A stretch of DNA of 64,000 bases from the NCBI GenBank assembly GCA_000004985.1, contig GG738868.1, one strand, 5' to 3'. Position 1 is the first letter of the stretch. Each line of letters opens with the position of its first letter. Made by a program: the position numbers and the translations under genes. A model generated the notes under the pieces. It was given only the letters and a program-made list of their open reading frames with translations, was not told where the DNA came from and searched no databases. This DNA is from Naegleria gruberi. Lineage: Eukaryota. Of this stretch, positions 48,540 through 63,392 are shown piece after piece.

Positions 48540-49628
48540 ATGAACCTTCAAAATTGGTTAACAAACTTGGATTTGCAGCATTTCATTAATTTTAAATCAA
48601 ATTTTAAAAAAATGAGAAAACAATTAATAAGCAAACTCTCACAAATTGTCTCCCGTGATTTGGGTAATCGTGGCATTGGAAAATTAATAGAAAAATACAC
48701 AAATAACTCTTCCGATTCTACTATCAAACAATCTGAACTGTATTGTGGCAATGAACATTCTATCGGAAAGATTGTTGATGAATTTATAATGCCAAAGGTT
48801 GATTGCCAAAAAGATGTTATTTCTAACAAGTACATTTCGATAATTACTGGATTTTCTGTGCCACCAAATGGATTTTCGGAGAATGATGGACCTTTGGGTG
48901 CAATTTGGATTGGATTGGGAATTGTGAAATATTCCAATTTGAATGTTTTATATTTTGTGGATGAGAATCAATACAATGCAATTTCCAAGTTTGCCAATAT
49001 GGTTTTTGAATCAATGAAAGATAGAATTAAAATTGTTAAAATTACAAAGAGTGATTTGGATAATGTAAAACAATCATCAAGTATTTCTGAATGTATTGAA
49101 AATATTGATTCAATGATTTCTATTGAAAGAGTTGGAAAAACCAAAGATTCTAATTATTATAGTATGAGAGGAATTGATATTTCAAGTTACAATTTGTCAA
49201 TGGATAGATTAATTGATCATGTCAGAGAAATCAAACCAGAAACTCAACTAATTTCTATTGGGGATGGAGGTAATGAAATAGGAATGGGAAATGTAATTGA
49301 TGGAGTTGCACAATTCATCCCAAACGGTGATAAAATAGCATGTGCTGTCAAATGCAATCAGTTATTAATTTGTGGCGTCAGTAATTGGGGTGGTTACTTA
49401 CTCTACCTATTATTTGAACATTGTAATTCATCGCTCACTCTTCAAACAATGCAAGGTATTAATATTGAACTCGATAGAAGCTATCTAGAATATATGAATA
49501 ATGAATGTAAAATGGTAGATGGTGTTAGAAATCAGCCAACTATGAGTGTTGATGGTCTTGAGTATGATCTAGTTCATGCCAACATTCTAAAGGAATTAAA
49601 TGAATGTTTCCAATCATCTAACCAATAA
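48540..49628 (+). CDS. Conserved protein with GDGGNEIGMG motif; possibly DUF4392/D-glutamate-cyclase-related (tentative)
   Basis: ATG at 48540, 362 aa. Motifs ..LISIGDGGNEIGMGNV.. and ..CNQLLICGVSNWGGY... Family assignment is from memory and unverified. Confidence 0.4.
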   Translation: MNLQNWLTNLDLQHFINFKSNFKKMRKQLISKLSQIVSRDLGNRGIGKLIEKYTNNSSDSTIKQSELYCGNEHSIGKIVDEFIMPKVDCQKDVISNKYISIITGFSVPPNGFSENDGPLGAIWIGLGIVKYSNLNVLYFVDENQYNAISKFANMVFESMKDRIKIVKITKSDLDNVKQSSSISECIENIDSMISIERVGKTKDSNYYSMRGIDISSYNLSMDRLIDHVREIKPETQLISIGDGGNEIGMGNVIDGVAQFIPNGDKIACAVKCNQLLICGVSNWGGYLLYLLFEHCNSSLTLQTMQGINIELDRSYLEYMNNECKMVDGVRNQPTMSVDGLEYDLVHANILKELNECFQSSNQ

Positions 49629-50389
49629 AAATTGGTGTACCCATTCCATAATTATTAATTTCAAAGATTATATTCAAAATCAACCTTGGAATTAAGGATG
49701 AAAATGAAAACTCTGAAAACGATAGACATCTGAATAGATTCTTTCTCTAAATTCTAAAAATCTCAATATTTTGACAATAAATATATCAAATCTAATCAAA
49801 TCATCATAACGATTTGAAAAACTCATTCAACAGATTGAACGACTACAATCCATTTCCTCAAAAGCTCACTCGTCAAAACTTGTATACAACCACATTTAGG
49901 ACACCACCTAAATTGGTGCCAACTGAGAGACAGTACCCACTAACTCCAACCATTCAAAACAACAACAAATTATCGATATTATTAGACTATTTGATTGCAA
50001 TATTAAATACTTACAAAACACATGTTTGGTTGGTATAATTAAAATGTTCCCGATTATTTTTACTTGCTTCCTTCTTAGGTGGTGAGAGAGGACACATCAT
50101 CAACAAAAGCCGCGCAAAAGAATGCCTGGTAGTAGCTATTATTAATTTTTTGCAACTCAAAAAAAAACCTTGCGCTTCTTTCCGCAATTACAAACACAAA
50201 AGAATCTTCGGGTGCTTAGCCTGCAAAGCGAATCACAACGACGACAACAACTTTTTTGATTGTTTTTATTTCCCTTGTTATAACAACAACCTGACATCTT
50301 TTTGGAACTTTTTGTTCGCAAAAGCAAATTATCATCCATAGTATTTTTTAATACGTAGTAGTAGTACAATAATTGAAATCACTTTGAAA

Positions 50390-51089
50390 ATGCAATTGTT
50401 TAGAGATTTTAGTTTTTTGAATTCTCCGCATACAAATAATAAGAAATCTACTCAGGTTTCTTGTTACACTAAAGACACTTGTGGTGTTAAGGAGAACTTG
50501 TACTTCTTCAGTCATGATGACGGTAGAGGGCCTATTCGCTATTTTTGATGTGGCTCTTTTTACCTTGAAGGAAATGGATTTCCACTATCGTCCTCTTGCT
50601 ATGGACGACTCTAACCTCGACTCTCTCCAATATTCTCTCACTCAACAACTCGACCAATCTATGAATTTCCTTTCCAATACTACATTCAAAAATACCCAAA
50701 AACTTTCACCAAAATCTGTAATGTTTGTTTATACTATTGGTGATGAATTACCAGATTATGACGATGCTTCATCAGAATCATCATTGGAATCTGACTCAAG
50801 TGATGCTAATATTAGAACTGGATTTACTGGTATTATCGACTTTGAAAAGAACGAAATGACAATTTATCCACCTTCTAATTCTTCATGCATGAATAAGGAT
50901 TCTGTTATTAATCTTATGGACATGGCTGATTGCCTCGGTATTTCAACTTTGTACATGTGTATTGAAAAGAACCATCAAGAAATTAGAGAGTTTTCTCGTG
51001 GTTTCATTTATGCTGGTTTCGAATTGATACAACCAAAGATTAAGCAATTGTCTTCAACTGAATGGGTTGTTTTTGGTGCTGAATTGTAA
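50390..51089 (+). CDS. OAZ: Ornithine decarboxylase antizyme homolog, predicted to require a +1 programmed ribosomal frameshift: ORF1 50390..50548 (52 codons, ends UUU-UGA), ORF2 continues in +1 frame from 50547 to 51089
   Basis: C-terminal half of ORF2 (..MTIYPPSNSSCMNKDSVINLMDMADCLGISTLYMCIEKNHQEIREFSRGFIYAGFELIQPKI..) matches the antizyme ODC-binding domain (..LYVEIPDG..VFICFHKNREDRAALLRTFSFLGFEIVRPGHPL..). Upstream ORF1 starts at ATG 50390 (aaaATGc) and ends ..CGC-UAU-UUU-UGA-UGU; skipping the U of UGA reads GAU-GUG-GCU.. (ORF2). The track ORF 50481..51089 starts at a GTG. Confidence 0.6.
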
Positions 51090-51502
51090 AAAGATTTTTT
51101 CGGAATTGGAAAGATTTTTGTAAATATTTAATTGGTCAGAGAGAAGGAAACGAATTCAATCTACACGATATCTTATAGAACTTGCAAACCAAAACTTTGG
51201 ATGACGGATTGAGCATTGTAAACTTGAATAACGTCGGTTGTTTGGGTTTTGTTCTTTGTTCACATAATCTTGATAGTGGAGTTGTTGGAATGCAATCTTT
51301 CTATTTTAGAGGATGACTGAAGATTGTCTTTGAACCCTTTTCTCATTTTAATAAAGAGAGAGTTCGAATAATACTTTTACTGTTTCTTTAATTTGAGTCT
51401 ATGACAAACAGAGAAGGTAGATCTGAAGATGTTTTCAAGGTTGTAATTTGAAATCAATAATTTTATTCCAAAAAGATTCACATAATGAGAACAGGCGATA
51501 GT

Positions 51503-54500
51503 CTAATCAGAGTCTGTACTTGCATCTCCATAATCATCTTCCTCTTCAACCTTCATAGTTTCTTCTTCCTCAGGATCACTATCACCATTGTCATCAATAT
51601 TGTCTTCCTCCTCTTCTTCATTCTCCTCATCACTGTCAAAATCAACTCTTTTTTTAGCCTTATAATTAATCAGAGAAGGATTCATTGAAGAGGTATATCC
51701 AAAACAGAATACTTGAAAACCACCAACTCCATTCAACAACATTTGAGTTTTTTCACAAATTTCCAATTCACACCATCCTCTTTCAGCTGCCTCCTTCTTT
51801 GTTGGAGTTGGATTTTTCTTTCCTGGATTGGCACTAACTGTGAGTAAGGTTTCCTTTCTCAATTGATTTTCTGGTTCTTCCCAAAAGTCATCTGAGCTAA
51901 TTGGTAAAATACCTTCCATAGAAGGTAAGAAATAAGTATTCACAGCAGAAGTCAAATAGGAAATAGTATGGGTTGGTCTCTTGAGATTATGAATCTTGTT
52001 TTTCAAACTATCATTCACTTGATAGTTCCACATAGCTACTCTTCCAATATGTTTCTTATTGTCAAATATGGATTCCAACTGTTCAACCAAAAATCTTGCA
52101 ATTTGAATGTCAGGATTGTTGAGTTGAATTTCTTTCAATAATTCAATAAATTGTTGAGGATTGTGAATTATTAATTTAAGAGTTGATTCTGAGGATACTT
52201 CATTAGTAATTTCTGTTATTCTACTATTATACTTTTTTCTTGATGGACCTTTGATCGATTTGATATATTCATCCAAAATGTCCAACAAGTGAAATCGTCC
52301 ATTTCCCAATTCTTCAATGATTTGATCAGTCAAATTGTATTTTAACTTGAGTATTTTCAAGCAATTAGCTGCAAACTCCGGTTCCAGTAGAATTTCTTTC
52401 AACTTTGCAAATCTAACCCTAGAAACGTTTGGATTAAATAGCTCAGTATGTAAAACTTTTTCCATAAATTGTAAACTTCTGAGCATTGATGTTTCATGTG
52501 AAACAAACAATTTTTGTTGTCTACTATATTCATAAAATTCTAAAATGTCATCTTGAATAATATGAATGCATTCAAGTTTAAGAAATTGACCAATTGCCAA
52601 AATTGAGGAATGAACAATGCCAGGTCCAAGAGGCATATTAGATTCCAAAACAATAAAATTGTAGTCATCCACTCTATTTCCATTAGATATAATCCATTTC
52701 TTATATCTATTGATATATTTTGATTCTGTTACAATGGTTACACAATTTGGAATTGAATCTGAATGCAGCTTCTTCACGAAATTAGAATAGAGATAAGGTT
52801 TCCAAAATTTTCCTCTTGGTCTTGATTTGATAAATAGAGGTTTCAATCCATCACTAGTGAGCGTTGAAATCTGTTTCAGTTTAGTCAAAAAGCTTTCTTC
52901 ATTATAGGAAATTTCTAGAATTTCATCATCTCTATTAAACTTGACCAATATTTCGTTATCATTCGAATAGTTTCTATCCATTACTTTAACAGGAATTGTG
53001 TATCTATCTCTCTTCTCGAATTTGAATTTCAACAAGGCATCGTTATGTGAGCAAAATGATTTTTGTTTTTCTTGCTTTTTTGCTTTCTTCTTTTCCTTCT
53101 TCTTCTTTTCCTTCTTTTCAGGGACAGGAGGTCTTAAATCAGTTACACTTTCAGATTCTTTATCTGGAAGATCTAATTTACATTCTTCCAATCTTTGTGG
53201 GAATGGATATTTGTCTTCAATGATTACCTCACCAATTGATGATTTCTTATTTTGGTACTTTGTCAATAGTTGTTTAACATTTTTGTGTAAACCAAAACTC
53301 AATTCTTCCCATGATTGGACAGTTTCCTCAAATTGAACACTAAAATCATGTTCAAAATCTTCCACTGCTTGCACAATATCTAGAATTATCTTTTCCTTTG
53401 ATTTGTCCTTTTCCTCAAAATTTGGATTCAAAGAATAGCACAAAGACTGGACCCACTCTAATGGAATGATAGTATCACTTCTCAGGTATGATTCTTGCAA
53501 AATAGATGTTAATTTGGCTTGGAATCTTTTAGTAAGAGTGTTGAAACAACTTAAAAAGCTCTCTAATTTTAAAAAAAACCCACTGTTAAAATACCCAAAG
53601 CATTGCTTCCACCTCTTGATTCTCTGTGGTACTTTCAATTGGTTTAGTTTCTTTTGTTTTGTTTTTTTCAATTCAGGTACAATTTCTTTCCTTTGAAAAC
53701 CTAATACAATAGGATTGGTGTAATAGGATGAAAACTTCTTTACGAAAGAATCTATTGTCTTTTCTTTTAAGGCATCCACATCAGGTATATTTTCTTTCAA
53801 TCCATCAATAACACTTTGCAATTTCTTCTGAATTTTCTGGATACATGACTTCAATTCTTTCACGAACTTTAATGGAAACTTTTGTACTTTCTTAATAGTT
53901 GTATTAGACAGTACAACAATAGCCATGTCTCTTAATTGACTAATATTGTTTGATATAATCTTTTTTCTATTGTTTTCAATAATTGATTGTAAATTGGAAA
54001 CAAAGTGATCTCTCATTTCAACGTTGTTAGGTGGTGGAAAACAAACTAAATCAAAATTATCATATAATCCCTTTACAAAATCATACTTGTTTTCCATATC
54101 AATTTCATTGGTATTGATATTATTGGCTTCTAATTCCAAGTCGAAAGGGACATCATCTAGCTCACAATCGAAATGAAAAGCAAGTTGCTTTCCATATGAT
54201 TCTTTCATGGGTTTGAAAACGTTTTTTGTCATAACCTCATTCTTGTAGCTCTCCTCATTCATTACCTTATTATTAGCTAAGATTGCAATGTAAGGTTGAT
54301 GGGTTTGTTGTGGTTGATGGATACCATAATCCCACACCTTTTGTACAATACCATCATCAAGAATGATCCTTTCATTTTCAATACCACACAATAACAAGCA
54401 GGTGTCATATAAACTTTCTCTTATCAAATGCTTGTAGGATACATTTTCATGGACATTTACTGGATCAGTAGTTTGCTTTTCATCATATCCAGGCATATCT

Positions 54501-55243
54501 CTGAGAATTATTTTGCTCCTTTGAAGGAACTTGGAAGGGATTTTCAAGATTAACTTCTTAATATGGACTTTCTTAAAGTTGGTGTCAGCATCAAACTCTA
54601 AAATCTTGTTACGTGCTTTAGTGGCCAGAAATTCATAAAGTTCCTCTTCAGAATTTCCATTGTCAATAATATAATTTGATTGATTGTCAATTTCACAATC
54701 TTTCAAAGTATCAGTAGCAAGTTGTTCAACTTTCCTTGCACACAACTCTTGTTGTGAACAATACTGAACAGTCAAACTGTAAGTTGGTGAATACTCAACA
54801 TCAACAACTGTACGTGTCAAACCCTTTCCAAACTGAACAGCAGAAGGAAGAGGAGCATTAGTCATTTTGAAATCAGACAACAATTGATCAATGATGAAGG
54901 ATTTACCATATCCTGGCTTACAAAACAGGGTAACCACAACTTTGCCCCGAAAATCCTTGATGATTCCCTCCATAGACTCTAAATGTTCAGAACACATTGT
55001 CCTAATGGATCCCTTCTTATTGGAACCGTTTAAATGTTCCTTGTAGAATGTTTTAACCTTATCAAAATCCTCAGTTTCTGTCTTCATTTGTTTATCCTCC
55101 TGCTGTTCATTGCCATTCTCTGGTGATGGGTCCATTTTGATTTTCTTGGGTGCTTGTTCTGTAGATGATGAAGCAGTTGCAGCAGCAGCAGCAGTAGCAG
55201 TAGTAGCACTCGGAGAGTGAGTAATCTTTCTCTTTCGAAGCAT
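51503..55243 (-). CDS. Large (1246 aa) P-loop NTPase-domain protein, possibly dynamin/IRG-like GTPase; acidic C-terminus, Lys-rich internal stretch
   Basis: ATG at 55243. P-loop VVVTLFCKPGYGKSFIIDQLL; about 130 aa downstream KIILRDMPGYDEKQ (DxPG, resembling the dynamin-superfamily G3 DLPG). K-rich [20 protein letters not shown]-terminal EEEEEDNIDDNGDSDPEEEE. Shares the P-loop...DMPG arrangement with the adjacent 55848..57146 gene. Confidence 0.5.
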   Translation of the reverse strand: MLRKRKITHSPSATTATAAAAATASSSTEQAPKKIKMDPSPENGNEQQEDKQMKTETEDFDKVKTFYKEHLNGSNKKGSIRTMCSEHLESMEGIIKDFRGKVVVTLFCKPGYGKSFIIDQLLSDFKMTNAPLPSAVQFGKGLTRTVVDVEYSPTYSLTVQYCSQQELCARKVEQLATDTLKDCEIDNQSNYIIDNGNSEEELYEFLATKARNKILEFDADTNFKKVHIKKLILKIPSKFLQRSKIILRDMPGYDEKQTTDPVNVHENVSYKHLIRESLYDTCLLLCGIENERIILDDGIVQKVWDYGIHQPQQTHQPYIAILANNKVMNEESYKNEVMTKNVFKPMKESYGKQLAFHFDCELDDVPFDLELEANNINTNEIDMENKYDFVKGLYDNFDLVCFPPPNNVEMRDHFVSNLQSIIENNRKKIISNNISQLRDMAIVVLSNTTIKKVQKFPLKFVKELKSCIQKIQKKLQSVIDGLKENIPDVDALKEKTIDSFVKKFSSYYTNPIVLGFQRKEIVPELKKTKQKKLNQLKVPQRIKRWKQCFGYFNSGFFLKLESFLSCFNTLTKRFQAKLTSILQESYLRSDTIIPLEWVQSLCYSLNPNFEEKDKSKEKIILDIVQAVEDFEHDFSVQFEETVQSWEELSFGLHKNVKQLLTKYQNKKSSIGEVIIEDKYPFPQRLEECKLDLPDKESESVTDLRPPVPEKKEKKKKEKKKAKKQEKQKSFCSHNDALLKFKFEKRDRYTIPVKVMDRNYSNDNEILVKFNRDDEILEISYNEESFLTKLKQISTLTSDGLKPLFIKSRPRGKFWKPYLYSNFVKKLHSDSIPNCVTIVTESKYINRYKKWIISNGNRVDDYNFIVLESNMPLGPGIVHSSILAIGQFLKLECIHIIQDDILEFYEYSRQQKLFVSHETSMLRSLQFMEKVLHTELFNPNVSRVRFAKLKEILLEPEFAANCLKILKLKYNLTDQIIEELGNGRFHLLDILDEYIKSIKGPSRKKYNSRITEITNEVSSESTLKLIIHNPQQFIELLKEIQLNNPDIQIARFLVEQLESIFDNKKHIGRVAMWNYQVNDSLKNKIHNLKRPTHTISYLTSAVNTYFLPSMEGILPISSDDFWEEPENQLRKETLLTVSANPGKKNPTPTKKEAAERGWCELEICEKTQMLLNGVGGFQVFCFGYTSSMNPSLINYKAKKRVDFDSDEENEEEEEDNIDDNGDSDPEEEETMKVEEEDDYGDASTDSD

Positions 55244-62117: not shown

Positions 62118-63392
62118 CTAATCTACTAATCCTTCAAATTCTCTCTTATCTTTCACTTTAAAGTATGAATAGAGATAGGTTCCAACTACTGTAAATGCAG
62201 AAGACAATAATCCATAAGTAGAAACATGAGTATTGTGAACTGCAAATGATAAAAATGATTCCACAACAGATTTCATTGAAATAGTGACAGAAGTAGTCAA
62301 TGGAGAGGTATAACTAATTAACATGAAATTAGAAATATTGACAACGTATGCTATTAGGGCTGTTGTTGTGAGAATTGCTAAAAACTTTGGTTCAAATAAA
62401 TAATTAACAGAAATTGCCTTTTCAAATTCTCCTGTAAAATAGCAAACAGGGAATAAAAACAAAATGGCACAAACAACGTTATAAATTAGAATAATCCAAT
62501 GATTTCTGTGTGAGGAGGACATTAATTTCTTTAAATAAATTGAATAAAGTGCCATAAAGCAACTGGACATCAATCCAAAAGCAAATCCAATCGACTGCAT
62601 TTTAGAAAGTTGTAATTCTTCAAATCCAGTCATGAAATATCCAATAGCAATCATTAAACATGCTCCAATAATTCTCTTCTGAACTTTTTCTCCCAATAAA
62701 ACTGATGTGAAAATCACCGTGAAACAAATACTAATACTTCTTGCAGTGTGATAGGTGTGAATATCTGCATAATCCAAACACAAATTATTAAAAGTAACCA
62801 TTCCAACATAACACAATGATACAGGAGCTATTTGTACTGCTGTATCAAATTTAAATTCAAAATCTGGTAAGAAACTAAAACAAGTTCTAATTAAATGATT
62901 AGTTTTTTTCAATTTGAATAAATCAATTACCAACCTATTTAAATTATAAGTACAAATAATACACAACAATGAGACAATCAAATGAAACCAAGCCATAGTT
63001 AATGGAAAATGAAATGAATATTCACCCATATCCATCAAGTATTTTGTCAAAAAGACAGATAGAATTGAAGTTACTGAAAAGAAAGAAATGGCCATTCCAA
63101 TTTGTCTTTTTTAAAACATGGGATTAATACCATTTCAACAAATGATGACTTACAAATTTGATGCTTCTTTCCGCAGCAAATGTTGGTGATGAGTGTTTAA
63201 TCTTGCAGAAGTAGGTGATATTGGTTTAAATTCTGTGTTATCCTCCGAATGTGGTGAGTGTTGTCTGTTATTGATTCCTAGTGTTGGTGGCGAGTGGATG
63301 GGTACTTGTTCCTCATCGTCGTCTTGTCTAAGTTTTGTTCTCACCACAAGATTTGGTCCCGAGAGAGAATTGTCATGATGAAGTGAAGACAT
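62118..63392 (-). CDS. TPT-family transporter (SLC35-like nucleotide-sugar/triose-phosphate translocator fold), 2 exons: 63392..63154 and 63105..62118 (48-nt intron GTAAGT...TTTAAAAAAG)
   Basis: ATG at 63392. Exon 1 (MSSLHHDNSLSGPNLVVRTKLRQDDDEE..HLLRKEASN) ends TT|GTAAGT. The acceptor restores ..L|QIGMAISFFSVTSILSV.. Exon 2 encodes ~10 TM helices typical of TPT/SLC35 (..MAWFHLIVSLLCIICTY.., ..IGYFMTGFEEL.., ..LFLFPVCYFTGEFE..). Confidence 0.6.

What the first reader, a model, noticed from the sequence alone, without database searches (positions are those of the whole stretch)
50390..50560. Antizyme gene with the two-ORF arrangement of programmed +1 ribosomal frameshifting (UUU-UGA-U shift site)
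The downstream frame (to 51089) encodes an unmistakable ornithine decarboxylase antizyme C-terminal domain. An upstream ATG-initiated ORF1 (50390; 52 sense codons) is open for its whole length and terminates at UGA (50546-50548) exactly where the +1 frame continues: ..CGC UAU UUU UGA UGU.. becomes ..R Y F | D V A L F T L K E... This is the arrangement used by antizymes from fungi to mammals, where polyamine levels control a +1 shift at the ORF1 stop codon. The last sense codon here is UUU rather than the common UCC. The stop codon UGA and the following U are retained. A 52-codon open frame by chance has roughly 2% probability at this AT content, which supports ORF1 being coding. This would extend polyamine-sensing recoding to this protist lineage.
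Basis: partly seen in the sequence, partly recalled or inferred. Interest (0 to 1): 0.85.

Follow-up and report, generated by a model that had tools for sequence, protein, structure and literature searches.

The report
Naegleria antizyme gene needing +1 frameshift
This is the ornithine decarboxylase antizyme gene of the amoeba Naegleria gruberi, and, as in fungi and animals, the full protein can be made only if the ribosome slips forward one base at a UUU-UGA site; the feature is real and is missing from the public annotation, but it is an expected new example of a well-known regulatory system.

Summary
ORF1 runs from ATG 50390 for 52 sense codons to UGA 50546-50548. The +1 frame continues from 50547 to 51089 and encodes an antizyme domain (Pfam ODC_AZ 32.3 bits against a cutoff of 24.2; the top four Foldseek PDB hits are human antizyme 1). 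The window is Naegleria gruberi. GenBank annotates only a 191-aa 'predicted protein' starting at ATG 50514.

The same two-ORF layout occurs in all 13 distinct sequences examined (Naegleria species, Willaertia, four more distant unnamed relatives). ORF1 always ends at UUU-UGA, UUU-UAG or AUU-UGA, exactly where ORF2 homology begins. Selection switches frame at that point. Upstream, pN/pS is 0.06 in the ORF1 frame and 4.9 in the ORF2 frame. Downstream it is 0.27 in the ORF2 frame and 2.3 in the ORF1 frame. The ORF2-frame ATG is a by-product of an ORF1 His codon (CAU followed by G) and is missing in 4 of the 13 sequences. The 5' cassette resembles the human one (GGGCCUCGG..UGC.UUUUGAUG, 18 of 20 bases).

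No conserved 3' RNA structure was found near the site. About 28 C-terminal residues of ORF1 are conserved as peptide. Polyamine dependence and ODC binding are inferred, not shown.

The parts
50125..50389 (+). AUG-free 5' leader of the antizyme mRNA (extent approximate)
   Evidence: The nearest upstream ATG is at 50122. P(no ATG in 266 nt) is about 0.007 from base composition. None of the six orthologous loci with enough upstream sequence has an ATG within 200 nt upstream of the ORF1 ATG. Contigs L007 and L008 begin at window-equivalent positions ~50157 and 50182. The ORF1 start context uugaaaAUGCA is conserved.
50390..50548 (+). ORF1: 52 sense codons plus UGA
   Evidence: Orthologous ORF1s of 38-65 codons (up to 173 in L012) differ by in-frame indels only. 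Over ungapped blocks, pN/pS is 0.25 in this frame against 1.84 and 1.34 in the other two frames.
50459..50545 (+). Conserved C-terminal peptide of ORF1 (SCYTKDTCGVKENLYFFSHDDGRGPIRYF); candidate nascent-peptide stimulator, or a functional N-terminal segment of antizyme
   Evidence: The motif (S/G)CYT(K/R)..G(R)E(N/Q)(L/I)(Y/C)FF.H...G(P/W)(R/Y)(F/I)* is shared by all 13 sequences. In the 8 Naegleria sequences, ENLYFFSHDDG (50492-50524) has no amino-acid change, while 11 of 17 third positions vary across the three conserved blocks compared (ENLYFFSH, DDG-x-GP and R-x-F); pN/pS is 0.06. In the four distant loci pN/pS is 0.26.
50514..50519 (+). ATG-ATG in the ORF2 frame, used as start in the GenBank model EFC44392.1; probably incidental
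   Evidence: It arises from ORF1 codons CAU GAU GAC (H D D). The synonymous CAC/GAC in L009 removes it. It is also absent in Willaertia, L015 and L017.
50525..50542 (+). 5' nucleotide cassette next to the shift site (AGA GGG CCU AUU CGC UAU), resembling antizyme modules A/B
   Evidence: GGGCCU and CG(C/G)U are invariant in all 8 Naegleria sequences despite degenerate codons. After a 3-nt gap, L011 GGGCCUCGGUGCUUUUGAUG matches the human AZ1 cassette GGGCCUCGGUGGUGCUCCUGAUG (sequence from PMC1616946) at 18 of 20 positions. GGGCCT occurs only twice on the + strand of the 64-kb window.
50543..50549 (+). +1 shift site UUU-UGA-U
   Evidence: TTTTGATGT is identical in all 9 Naegleria/Willaertia sequences. 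The variants are UUU-UGA-C, AUU-UGA-C and UUU-UAG-C in distant relatives. The coding frame switches here.
50547..51089 (+). ORF2 as read after the shift (180 codons plus stop); the fused product is 232 aa
   Evidence: For the first 16 codons, pN/pS is 0.27 in the ORF2 frame against 2.31 in the ORF1 frame. The DFxYRP motif at 50577-50594 is invariant in 9 sequences.
50868..51086 (+). Antizyme (ODC_AZ, PF02100) C-terminal domain
   Evidence: Pfam match of 32.3 bits, residues 160-232 of the fused protein. PDB profile hits are 4zgz_B, 4zgy_B, 1zo0_A and 5bwa_B. In the AlphaFold model this domain has pLDDT about 70-80 and the best Foldseek hit is 4zgy_B, E 3e-5, rmsd 2.9 A.
51190..51355 (+). Conserved structured 3' UTR element followed by AAUAAA (function unknown; belongs to the same transcript)
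   Evidence: The region is 70-73% identical between N. gruberi and N. fowleri, N. lovaniensis and L005, although synteny breaks just beyond it. In the hairpin 51220-51249, 5 of 11 pairs changed on both sides. No Rfam match. Contigs L005, L006 and L008 end 3-11 nt after the AATAAA at 51350-51355.

Best explanation
This is the single-copy ornithine decarboxylase antizyme gene of Naegleria gruberi (locus NAEGRDRAFT_79790), expressed by programmed +1 ribosomal frameshifting.

Proposed mechanism:
1. Ribosomes scan an AUG-free leader and start at AUG 50390.
2. They translate the 52 codons of ORF1 and arrive with peptidyl-tRNA-Phe on UUU (50543-50545) in the P site and UGA in the A site.
3. Termination at UGA-U is slow. 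A fraction of ribosomes slip one base forward: the tRNA re-pairs with the overlapping UUU formed by bases 50544-50546.
4. These ribosomes read GAU (Asp) next and continue to 51089. The product is a 232-aa antizyme with the junction ...GPIRYF-DVALFTLK.... Ribosomes that do not slip release the 52-aa ORF1 peptide.
5. By homology with antizymes from yeast to mammals, polyamines raise the slip frequency. The product then binds ODC monomers and sends them for degradation, closing a negative feedback loop.

The likely stimulators lie 5' of the site. One is a module A/B-like nucleotide cassette (GGGCCU..CGCU). The other is a peptide-level conserved ORF1 tail that would sit in the exit tunnel at the moment of the shift. 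No 3' pseudoknot or stem-loop is evident.

Shown here: the ORF layout, its conservation, the frame switch of selection, family membership of ORF2, and cassette similarity to human AZ1.
Inferred: the frameshift event itself, its efficiency, polyamine dependence, and ODC targeting.
For: - **Layout and coordinates:**
- **Species and annotation:** the window protein is 100% identical to N. gruberi EFC44392.1, annotated from ATG 50514.
- **Layout in relatives:** all 9 Naegleria/Willaertia sequences have an ATG-initiated ORF1 in the -1 frame ending at TTT-TGA-T. Four more distant relatives found by profile search have the same layout, with UUU-UGA-U/C, AUU-UGA-C or UUU-UAG-C.
- **Frame-specific selection:** over ORF1, pN/pS is 0.25 in the ORF1 frame against 1.84 and 1.34. 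Over the last conserved ORF1 codons it is 0.06 against 4.93. Over the first 16 ORF2 codons it is 0.27 in the ORF2 frame against 2.31 in the ORF1 frame. In the distant loci it is 0.26 against 1.38 and 1.58.
- **ORF2-frame AUG:** it is missing in 4 of 13 sequences and toggles with synonymous His codons of ORF1. In L009, which lacks it, the codons DVTLFAL between the shift site and the first downstream AUG are still conserved.
- **AUG-free leaders**.
- **Antizyme identity:** Pfam above its gathering score, PDB profile hits that are all antizyme 1 at the significant level, and a matching fold.
- **Cassette similarity to human AZ1:** 18 of 20 bases for L011, 21 identical positions for N. fowleri (human sequence from PMC1616946; GPGPRWCS from PMC5009743).
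- **Precedent:** UUU-UGA is an established antizyme shift site in Agaricomycetes, C. elegans-type nematodes and four protozoans (PMC1874602).
Against: - There is no direct evidence of the fused protein, of frameshift efficiency or of polyamine response in Naegleria.
- In N. gruberi itself, no AUG lies between the ORF1 AUG and the ORF2-frame AUGs at 50514/50517. Leaky scanning could therefore make some N-terminally truncated antizyme without frameshifting.
- No conserved 3' stimulatory structure was found. RNAalifold gave -6.5 kcal/mol with no covariation. Single-sequence z-scores were -1.66 and -0.14.
- Whether Naegleria has an ODC was not tested here.
- That contigs L005, L006 and L008 are transcripts is inferred only from their shared 3' ends.
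Confidence: 0.87

Rival explanations
1. ORF1 is a free-standing regulatory upstream ORF. It would be a conserved-peptide uORF, like the MAGDIS uORF of AdoMetDC mRNA. Antizyme would be translated separately from an ORF2-frame AUG by leaky scanning or by termination-reinitiation, with no frameshift. Candidate AUGs are 50514/50517 or a nearby downstream one.
For: ORF1 encodes a peptide conserved as peptide, as regulatory uORFs do. In N. gruberi, no AUG intervenes between 50390 and 50514. Nine of 13 sequences have an ORF2-frame AUG 27-33 nt upstream of the ORF1 stop. All have one within 10 codons downstream.
Against: The upstream ORF2-frame AUG is absent in L009, Willaertia, L015 and L017. It is explained as a by-product of CAU+G in ORF1. 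The position of the first downstream AUG varies (codon 4, 8 or 10), and the codons before it are conserved in the ORF2 frame. N. fowleri and N. lovaniensis have three extra in-frame ORF1 AUGs that would capture leaky-scanning ribosomes. The stop lies exactly where homology and selection switch frame in 13 of 13 sequences. The site is always a known shift-prone codon plus a stop, with the human-like 5' cassette. Experimentally studied antizymes with this layout frameshift (PMC1874602, PMC4505036).
Confidence: 0.06
2. The frameshift happens but is constitutive, or is tuned by something other than polyamines. The site would then be a fixed-ratio recoding device or a relic, not a polyamine sensor.
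For: Nothing in the sequence demonstrates polyamine dependence. No 3' structure was found. The 2007 survey notes at least one protist antizyme (Tetrahymena) with no frameshift at all, so the regulatory logic is not universal.
Against: The 5' cassette, which in fungi and mammals sensitises the site to polyamines, is conserved (PMC4505036). Retention of the costly two-ORF design across at least 13 divergent sequences argues for a regulatory role. Every antizyme frameshift tested so far responds to polyamines (established knowledge; PMC1874602).
Confidence: 0.05
3. The frame break is corrected at the nucleic-acid level or is not real. Options are a small intron, transcriptional slippage on the T5 run, an assembly error or a pseudogene.
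For: Thirty-eight formal GT..AG pairs of length 3n+1 could join ORF1 to ORF2. A run of five T precedes GA.
Against: The same break is present in independent assemblies of at least 13 sequences, so it is not an error or a pseudogene. Every candidate intron would remove sequence under codon-level selection on both sides of the UGA. The donor of the shortest (GTTAAG at 50486) is AGAAGG in N. fowleri. T5 is far shorter than known slippage-prone runs (established knowledge). Contigs L005, L006 and L008 look like transcripts and are colinear through the site.
Confidence: 0.02

Closest known systems
Mammalian antizyme 1 (OAZ1) +1 programmed frameshift
   Same: Two partly overlapping ORFs. A +1 shift at the last sense codon before a UGA followed by U. 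The first post-shift codon is GAU (Asp). The 5' cassette is GGG CCU CGG (UGG) UGC U.. UGA UG and the ORF1 ending is G-P-R-(W)-C-x-stop (PMC1616946; PMC5009743). The C-terminal domain has the same fold.
   Different: The P-site codon is UUU, which allows exact re-pairing in the +1 frame, whereas mammals use UCC. No 3' pseudoknot was detected. ORF2 shares only 19% identity with the human domain over the aligned fold.
Agaricomycotina (Coprinopsis cinerea) antizyme: UUU-UGA with a nascent-peptide stimulator plus module A (PMC4505036)
   Same: A UUU-UGA shift site. A block about 11 aa long lies just 5' of the module A position and is conserved as peptide with synonymous third-position changes. It sits at codons -17 to -7 here and -15 to -5 in C. 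cinerea.
   Different: There is no obvious sequence similarity between the two peptides. C. cinerea also has a conserved 3' double stem-loop starting 19 nt downstream of the site, and none is seen here. The stimulatory role of the Naegleria peptide is untested.
Jakobid antizymes (Seculamonas ecuadoriensis, Jakoba libera) in Ivanov & Atkins 2007 (PMC1874602)
   Same: These are the phylogenetically nearest described cases (Discoba). They frameshift, and a short peptide motif is conserved just 3' of the site: VIP(D/E)LGFR from codon 6. Here D-F-x-Y-R-P at codons 11-16 is invariant in 9 sequences. Relatives L013 and P0023 have (L/I)GF at codons 10-12.
   Different: The jakobid sequences themselves were not available to me, so the correspondence of motifs is a lead, not a test.
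Bacterial release factor 2 (prfB) +1 frameshift at CUU-UGA
   Same: An autoregulatory +1 slip of P-site tRNA onto an overlapping cognate codon while a poorly decoded UGA occupies the A site.
   Different: An unrelated protein. The stimulator is a Shine-Dalgarno-like interaction with rRNA. The sensor is RF2 itself, not polyamines.
Tetrahymena thermophila antizyme (no ORF1, no frameshift; PMC1874602)
   Same: A protist antizyme homologue.
   Different: It shows that frameshifting is not obligatory for protist antizymes. Naegleria clearly keeps the two-ORF design.

Membership tests
ODC antizyme (Pfam PF02100) expressed by +1 programmed ribosomal frameshifting | C-terminal antizyme domain by sequence | tested here: met
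   PF02100 at 32.3-33 bits against a gathering score of 24.2. Eight of 9 orthologues hit it. The four best profile hits in the PDB are all antizyme 1 chains, E about 0.02.
ODC antizyme (Pfam PF02100) expressed by +1 programmed ribosomal frameshifting | Antizyme fold of the C-terminal domain | tested here: met
   In the AlphaFold model the domain has pLDDT about 70-80. The Foldseek top four are 4zgy_B, 4zgz_D, 4zgz_B and 5bwa_B, with E 3e-5 to 9e-4, target-normalised TM-score 0.60-0.68 and rmsd 2.6-2.9 A. GNAT folds follow, as expected for this fold class. Overall model confidence is only 57.
ODC antizyme (Pfam PF02100) expressed by +1 programmed ribosomal frameshifting | Short ATG-initiated ORF1 overlapping ORF2, with ORF2 in the +1 frame | tested here: met
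   ORF1 is 50390-50548 and ORF2 continues from 50547. The layout is conserved in 13 of 13 sequences.
ODC antizyme (Pfam PF02100) expressed by +1 programmed ribosomal frameshifting | [quoted passage not shown] | tested here: met
   UUU-UGA-U here and in 9 sequences. UUU-UGA-C, AUU-UGA-C and UUU-UAG-C occur in distant relatives. The list of known sites comes from PMC1874602.
ODC antizyme (Pfam PF02100) expressed by +1 programmed ribosomal frameshifting | Both ORFs translated as one protein: coding selection switches frame at the site | tested here: met
   pN/pS is 0.06 (ORF1 frame) against 4.93 (ORF2 frame) just upstream, and 0.27 (ORF2 frame) against 2.31 (ORF1 frame) just downstream.
ODC antizyme (Pfam PF02100) expressed by +1 programmed ribosomal frameshifting | Conserved 5' element (module A) next to the shift site | tested here: met
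   The block GGGCCU..CG(C/G)U(A/G)(U/C) is invariant or nearly so in Naegleria. L011 matches the human cassette at 18 of 20 positions. The exact published module A consensus is in a figure that I could not read.
ODC antizyme (Pfam PF02100) expressed by +1 programmed ribosomal frameshifting | ORF2 has no initiation codon of its own that could give the full protein | tested here: inconclusive
   N. gruberi has ATG-ATG 33 nt upstream of the site in the ORF2 frame. That ATG is absent in 4 of 13 sequences and is a by-product of an ORF1 His codon. Minor use in N. gruberi cannot be excluded.
ODC antizyme (Pfam PF02100) expressed by +1 programmed ribosomal frameshifting | 3' RNA stimulator (pseudoknot or stem-loop); lineage-specific, not universal | tested here: not met
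   RNAalifold on 98 nt from 7 sequences gave -6.5 kcal/mol with no compensatory support and with pairs involving the shift site itself. Single-sequence z-scores were -1.66 and -0.14. Many accepted antizymes also lack one (PMC1874602).
ODC antizyme (Pfam PF02100) expressed by +1 programmed ribosomal frameshifting | Frameshift efficiency rises with polyamine concentration | not testable with these tools
   Needs reporter assays or ribosome profiling with and without spermidine or an ODC inhibitor.
ODC antizyme (Pfam PF02100) expressed by +1 programmed ribosomal frameshifting | Product binds ODC and promotes its degradation; ODC present in the organism | not tested
   No ODC gene lies in the window. 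Literature searches gave nothing on Naegleria ODC.

The most novel reading that the evidence does not exclude
The ~28-residue C-terminal tail of ORF1 may be a nascent-peptide polyamine sensor acting inside the exit tunnel. Its consensus is (S/G)CYT(K/R)..GRE(N/Q)(L/I)(Y/C)FF.H...G(P/W)(R/Y)F-stop. It is conserved as peptide across Naegleria, Willaertia and four much more distant unnamed protist antizymes. If it is such a sensor, it would be a second origin, independent of and far more widespread than the Agaricomycete case. The conserved structured 3' UTR element (51190-51345) may be an additional, previously undescribed regulator of this mRNA.
Probability: 0.3. Interest if true: 0.55.

Novelty: new member of a known kind. 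Interest (0 to 1): 0.35.

Why it matters
1. It corrects public annotation. The antizyme models for N. gruberi (EFC44392.1), N. fowleri (KAF0981592.1), N. lovaniensis (KAG2387743.1) and Willaertia magna (KAL9644210.1) are N-terminally truncated and carry no recoding flag.

2. It documents the polyamine feedback device in Heterolobosea, including the brain-eating amoeba N. fowleri. I found no paper on Naegleria antizyme, so polyamine control in this pathogen looks unexplored and could be a drug-target area.

3. The shift cassette is close to the human one, and there is a peptide-level conserved ORF1 tail. Together they add a deep-branching data point to two open questions: how polyamines are sensed during antizyme frameshifting, and whether the cassette dates back to early eukaryotes. 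Jakobid examples in the 2007 survey had already pointed to that conclusion.

Tried and rejected
- **3' stimulatory RNA structure:** RNAalifold and single-sequence folds of the 98 nt from the shift site gave nothing convincing.
- **5' RNA structure within ORF1:** no covariation; the sequences are too similar.
- **Rfam scan of 49600-51600 at E <= 10:** only chance-level bacterial sRNA and snoRNA matches. No SECIS, so Sec read-through of the UGA is not supported. The ORF1 frame beyond the UGA is also unconstrained.
- **Metagenome scan for more loci:** 358 pattern matches, none confirmed.
- **Third word-indexed homologue search with the enlarged alignment:** no new members.
- **Literature searches:** no paper found on Naegleria antizyme, Naegleria frameshifting or Naegleria ODC. 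The supplement of the 2007 survey that lists its protist species is not held, so I cannot exclude that N. gruberi was among its ~10 protists.
- **Box C/D snoRNA reading of the 3' UTR element:** considered and set aside. The motif is GGAUGA rather than UGAUGA, CUGA is not kept in N. fowleri, and there is no Rfam hit.
- **Taxonomic identity of the four distant loci:** could not be established.
Full report
**1. What is in the sequence**

- ATG at 50390 opens a 52-codon ORF1 (MQLFRDFSFLNSPHTNNKKSTQVSCYTKDTCGVKENLYFFSHDDGRGPIRYF).
- ORF1 stops at UGA 50546-50548, in the context CGC UAU UUU UGA UGU.
- The +1 frame is open from 50481 and runs to the stop at 51087-51089. Read from the shift, it gives D-V-A-L-F-T-L-K-E...
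- Two ATGs lie in the ORF2 frame at 50514-50519.

However, 19% of all ATGs in this gene-dense window are followed by at least 52 sense codons. Openness by itself therefore proves little.

**2. Identity**

The fused 232-aa protein hits Pfam ODC_AZ (PF02100) at 32.3 bits against a cutoff of 24.2, over residues 160-232. The ORF2-frame product is 100% identical to N. gruberi EFC44392.1 / XP_002677136.1 (NAEGRDRAFT_79790). That entry is annotated as a 191-aa 'predicted protein' starting at ATG 50514. The window is therefore N. gruberi.

Further support for the antizyme assignment:
- Eight of nine orthologues hit PF02100.
- A profile of them finds antizyme 1 chains as its only PDB matches near significance (E about 0.02).
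- An AlphaFold model has overall pLDDT 57 and about 70-80 in the C-terminal domain. Its four best Foldseek matches are human antizyme 1, with E 3e-5 to 9e-4 and rmsd 2.6-2.9 A.

**3. Comparative test of the two-ORF design**

I fetched the DNA of the following orthologues:
- N. fowleri (L001-L003)
- N. lovaniensis (L004)
- Willaertia magna (L010)
- five unnamed Naegleria-like assemblies (L005/L006, L007, L008, L009, L011)

An exhaustive profile search then led to four much more distant relatives of unknown taxon: L012, L013, L015 and L017. Their ORF2 is 26-35% identical to the window's.

Findings:
- In all 13 distinct sequences, an ATG-initiated ORF1 lies in the -1 frame relative to ORF2. It ends exactly where ORF2 homology starts.
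- The sites are UUU-UGA-U in ten sequences, UUU-UGA-C in L015, AUU-UGA-C in L012 and UUU-UAG-C in L017.
- ORF1 length varies from 38 to 65 codons, and is up to 173 in L012. The differences are in-frame indels only.

**4. Which frame is translated where**

| Region and sequence set | ORF1 frame pN/pS | ORF2 frame pN/pS | Third frame pN/pS |
|---|---|---|---|
| Ungapped blocks of ORF1, seven Naegleria | 0.25 | 1.84 | 1.34 |
| Last conserved ORF1 codons (ENLYFFSH, DDGxGP, RxF), eight Naegleria | 0.06 | 4.93 | 1.13 |
| First 16 codons after the site, eight Naegleria | 2.31 | 0.27 | 0.78 |
| Last 28 ORF1 codons, four distant loci | 0.26 | 1.38 | 1.58 |

In the last conserved ORF1 codons, 11 of 17 third positions vary, but only 2 first and 2 second positions do. 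The frame under purifying selection therefore changes at the UUU-UGA boundary. That is the signature of a trans-frame protein.

**5. The competing start codon**

These ATGs are formed by ORF1 codons CAU GAU GAC (His-Asp-Asp).
- In L009 the synonymous CAC GAC GAC removes both.
- L015 and L017 have CAC and no ATG.
- Willaertia has no His there and no ATG.
- In L012 and L013 an ATG again arises from CAU followed by G.

The ORF2-frame ATG is therefore a by-product of a conserved ORF1 histidine, present in 9 of 13 sequences. In L009, the seven ORF2 codons between the shift site and the first downstream ATG (DVTLFAL) are still conserved. N. fowleri and N. lovaniensis carry three extra in-frame ORF1 ATGs that would trap leaky-scanning ribosomes.

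One caveat applies to N. gruberi itself. No ATG intervenes between 50390 and 50514, so a minor unshifted short isoform cannot be excluded there.

**6. Other ways round the stop**

- *Introns.* Thirty-eight GT..AG pairs could formally restore the frame. All of them delete sequence that is under codon-level selection, and the donor of the shortest is not conserved in N. fowleri.
- *Assembly error or pseudogene.* The break is present in independent assemblies of 13 sequences.
- *Transcript evidence.* Contigs L005, L006 and L008 come from different sequencing runs. They end within 8 nt of each other, 3-11 nt after an AATAAA at 51350-51355. This suggests they are transcript assemblies. They are colinear with the genome through the site. 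This is an inference, because I could not see the run metadata.
- *Leader.* The 5' leader has no ATG for 266 nt (P about 0.007). Orthologues have none within 200 nt. This is consistent with ORF1's AUG being the first on the mRNA.
- *Selenocysteine.* There is no SECIS or other Rfam match, and the ORF1 frame beyond the UGA is unconstrained.

**7. Stimulatory signals**

*3' side.* No conserved structure emerged. The RNAalifold consensus is -6.5 kcal/mol, has no covariation and includes the shift site itself. Fold z-scores are -1.66 for N. gruberi and -0.14 for N. fowleri.

*5' side.* There are two layers.
- Next to the site, GGGCCU and CG(C/G)U are invariant in Naegleria despite degenerate codons. 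The cassette resembles the human AZ1 one. The human sequence is GGG CCU CGG UGG UGC UCC UGA UGC (from PMC1616946), which encodes GPRWCS-stop (PMC5009743). L011 reads GGG CCU CGG UGC UUU UGA UGU and N. fowleri reads GGG CCU CGC UGU UUU UGA UGU. That is 18 of 20 identities for L011 after a one-codon gap. The distant loci end GGG UGG UAU UUU UGA. This fits the published statement that most protozoan antizymes keep module A (PMC1874602).
- Further 5', ENLYFFSHDDG (codons -17 to -7) is conserved strictly as peptide. So is a wider ~28-residue tail shared by all 13 sequences. Its position matches the 11-aa nascent-peptide stimulator of Coprinopsis cinerea (codons -15 to -5, PMC4505036). A stimulatory role in Naegleria is a hypothesis. 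The conservation could equally reflect a function of this segment in the mature protein.

**8. Mechanism**

The best-supported model has these steps:
- Initiation at 50390.
- Translation of ORF1.
- A pause with tRNA-Phe on UUU and UGA-U in the A site.
- A +1 slip onto the overlapping UUU.
- Decoding of GAU and continuation to 51089.

Polyamine stimulation and ODC targeting follow from homology and were not tested here.

**9. Novelty**

[quoted passage not shown] That survey covered about 10 protist genes, including jakobids, and found UUU-UGA in four protozoans. Naegleria is not mentioned in its main text, and its supplement is not held. No paper in the library combines Naegleria with antizyme or with frameshifting in a relevant way. 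GenBank models in four species lack the recoding.

I therefore class this as a new member of a known kind. It is a sound annotation correction and a useful deep-branching data point, but not a surprise to specialists.

**10. Side observation**

About 270 nt downstream of the stop codon are unusually conserved and carry a hairpin supported by covariation. See 'noticed in passing'.

Noticed in passing
window 51190-51355 (+), 3' UTR of the antizyme gene: The non-coding stretch after the stop codon is unusually conserved. It is 70-73% identical between N. gruberi and N. fowleri, N. lovaniensis and L005, although gene order changes immediately beyond it. It contains two copies of GGAUGAC (51199-51205 and 51311-51317; GGAAUGAC twice in Willaertia). 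It has a hairpin at 51220-51249 in which 5 of 11 pairs changed on both sides; Willaertia has a hairpin of different sequence at the same place. About 40 nearly invariant bases follow, then AAUAAA. One-base indels rule out coding. No Rfam match at E <= 10. Function unknown.
   Followed up: partly
L012:6-527, L013:36-152, L015:298-471, L017:147-341: Four distant antizyme relatives of unknown taxon (Logan and JGI contigs) share the ORF1 tail CYT(K/R).H(N/D)T..G(R/Q)EQ(I/V)CFF.HGRK.G(W/C)(Y/R)(F/I). Three of them use shift sites other than UUU-UGA-U: AUU-UGA-C (L012), UUU-UAG-C (L017) and UUU-UGA-C (L015). In the 2007 survey, AUU was listed only for flatworms, and UAG as the ORF1 stop was reported only in yeasts related to S. 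cerevisiae (GCG-UAG).
   Followed up: partly
L009:~640-690: In this ENA metagenome contig the antizyme ORF2 loses homology after ...EKNHVELR and ends 11 codons later. There is no GT donor at the breakpoint. This is probably a chimeric assembly or a truncated copy.
   Followed up: partly
window 48540-49628 (+) versus L001:1357-2241 (-): The upstream neighbour is a D-glutamate cyclase-like gene (Pfam GLUCM-like_C, E 1e-77). Relative to the antizyme gene it is inverted between N. gruberi and N. fowleri/N. lovaniensis. The downstream TPT transporter gene of N. fowleri maps about 11 kb away in the window (62380-63083). An uncharacterised 1246-aa ORF (51503-55243, minus strand, no Pfam hit) lies between them.
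   Followed up: no
window 50577-50594: The motif D-F-x-Y-R-P, 11-16 codons after the shift site, is invariant in all nine Naegleria/Willaertia proteins while its codons vary synonymously. Distant relatives have (L/I)GF.WRP or LD(F/Y)VWRP at the same place. It may correspond to the jakobid VIP(D/E)LGFR motif described in 2007.
   Followed up: partly
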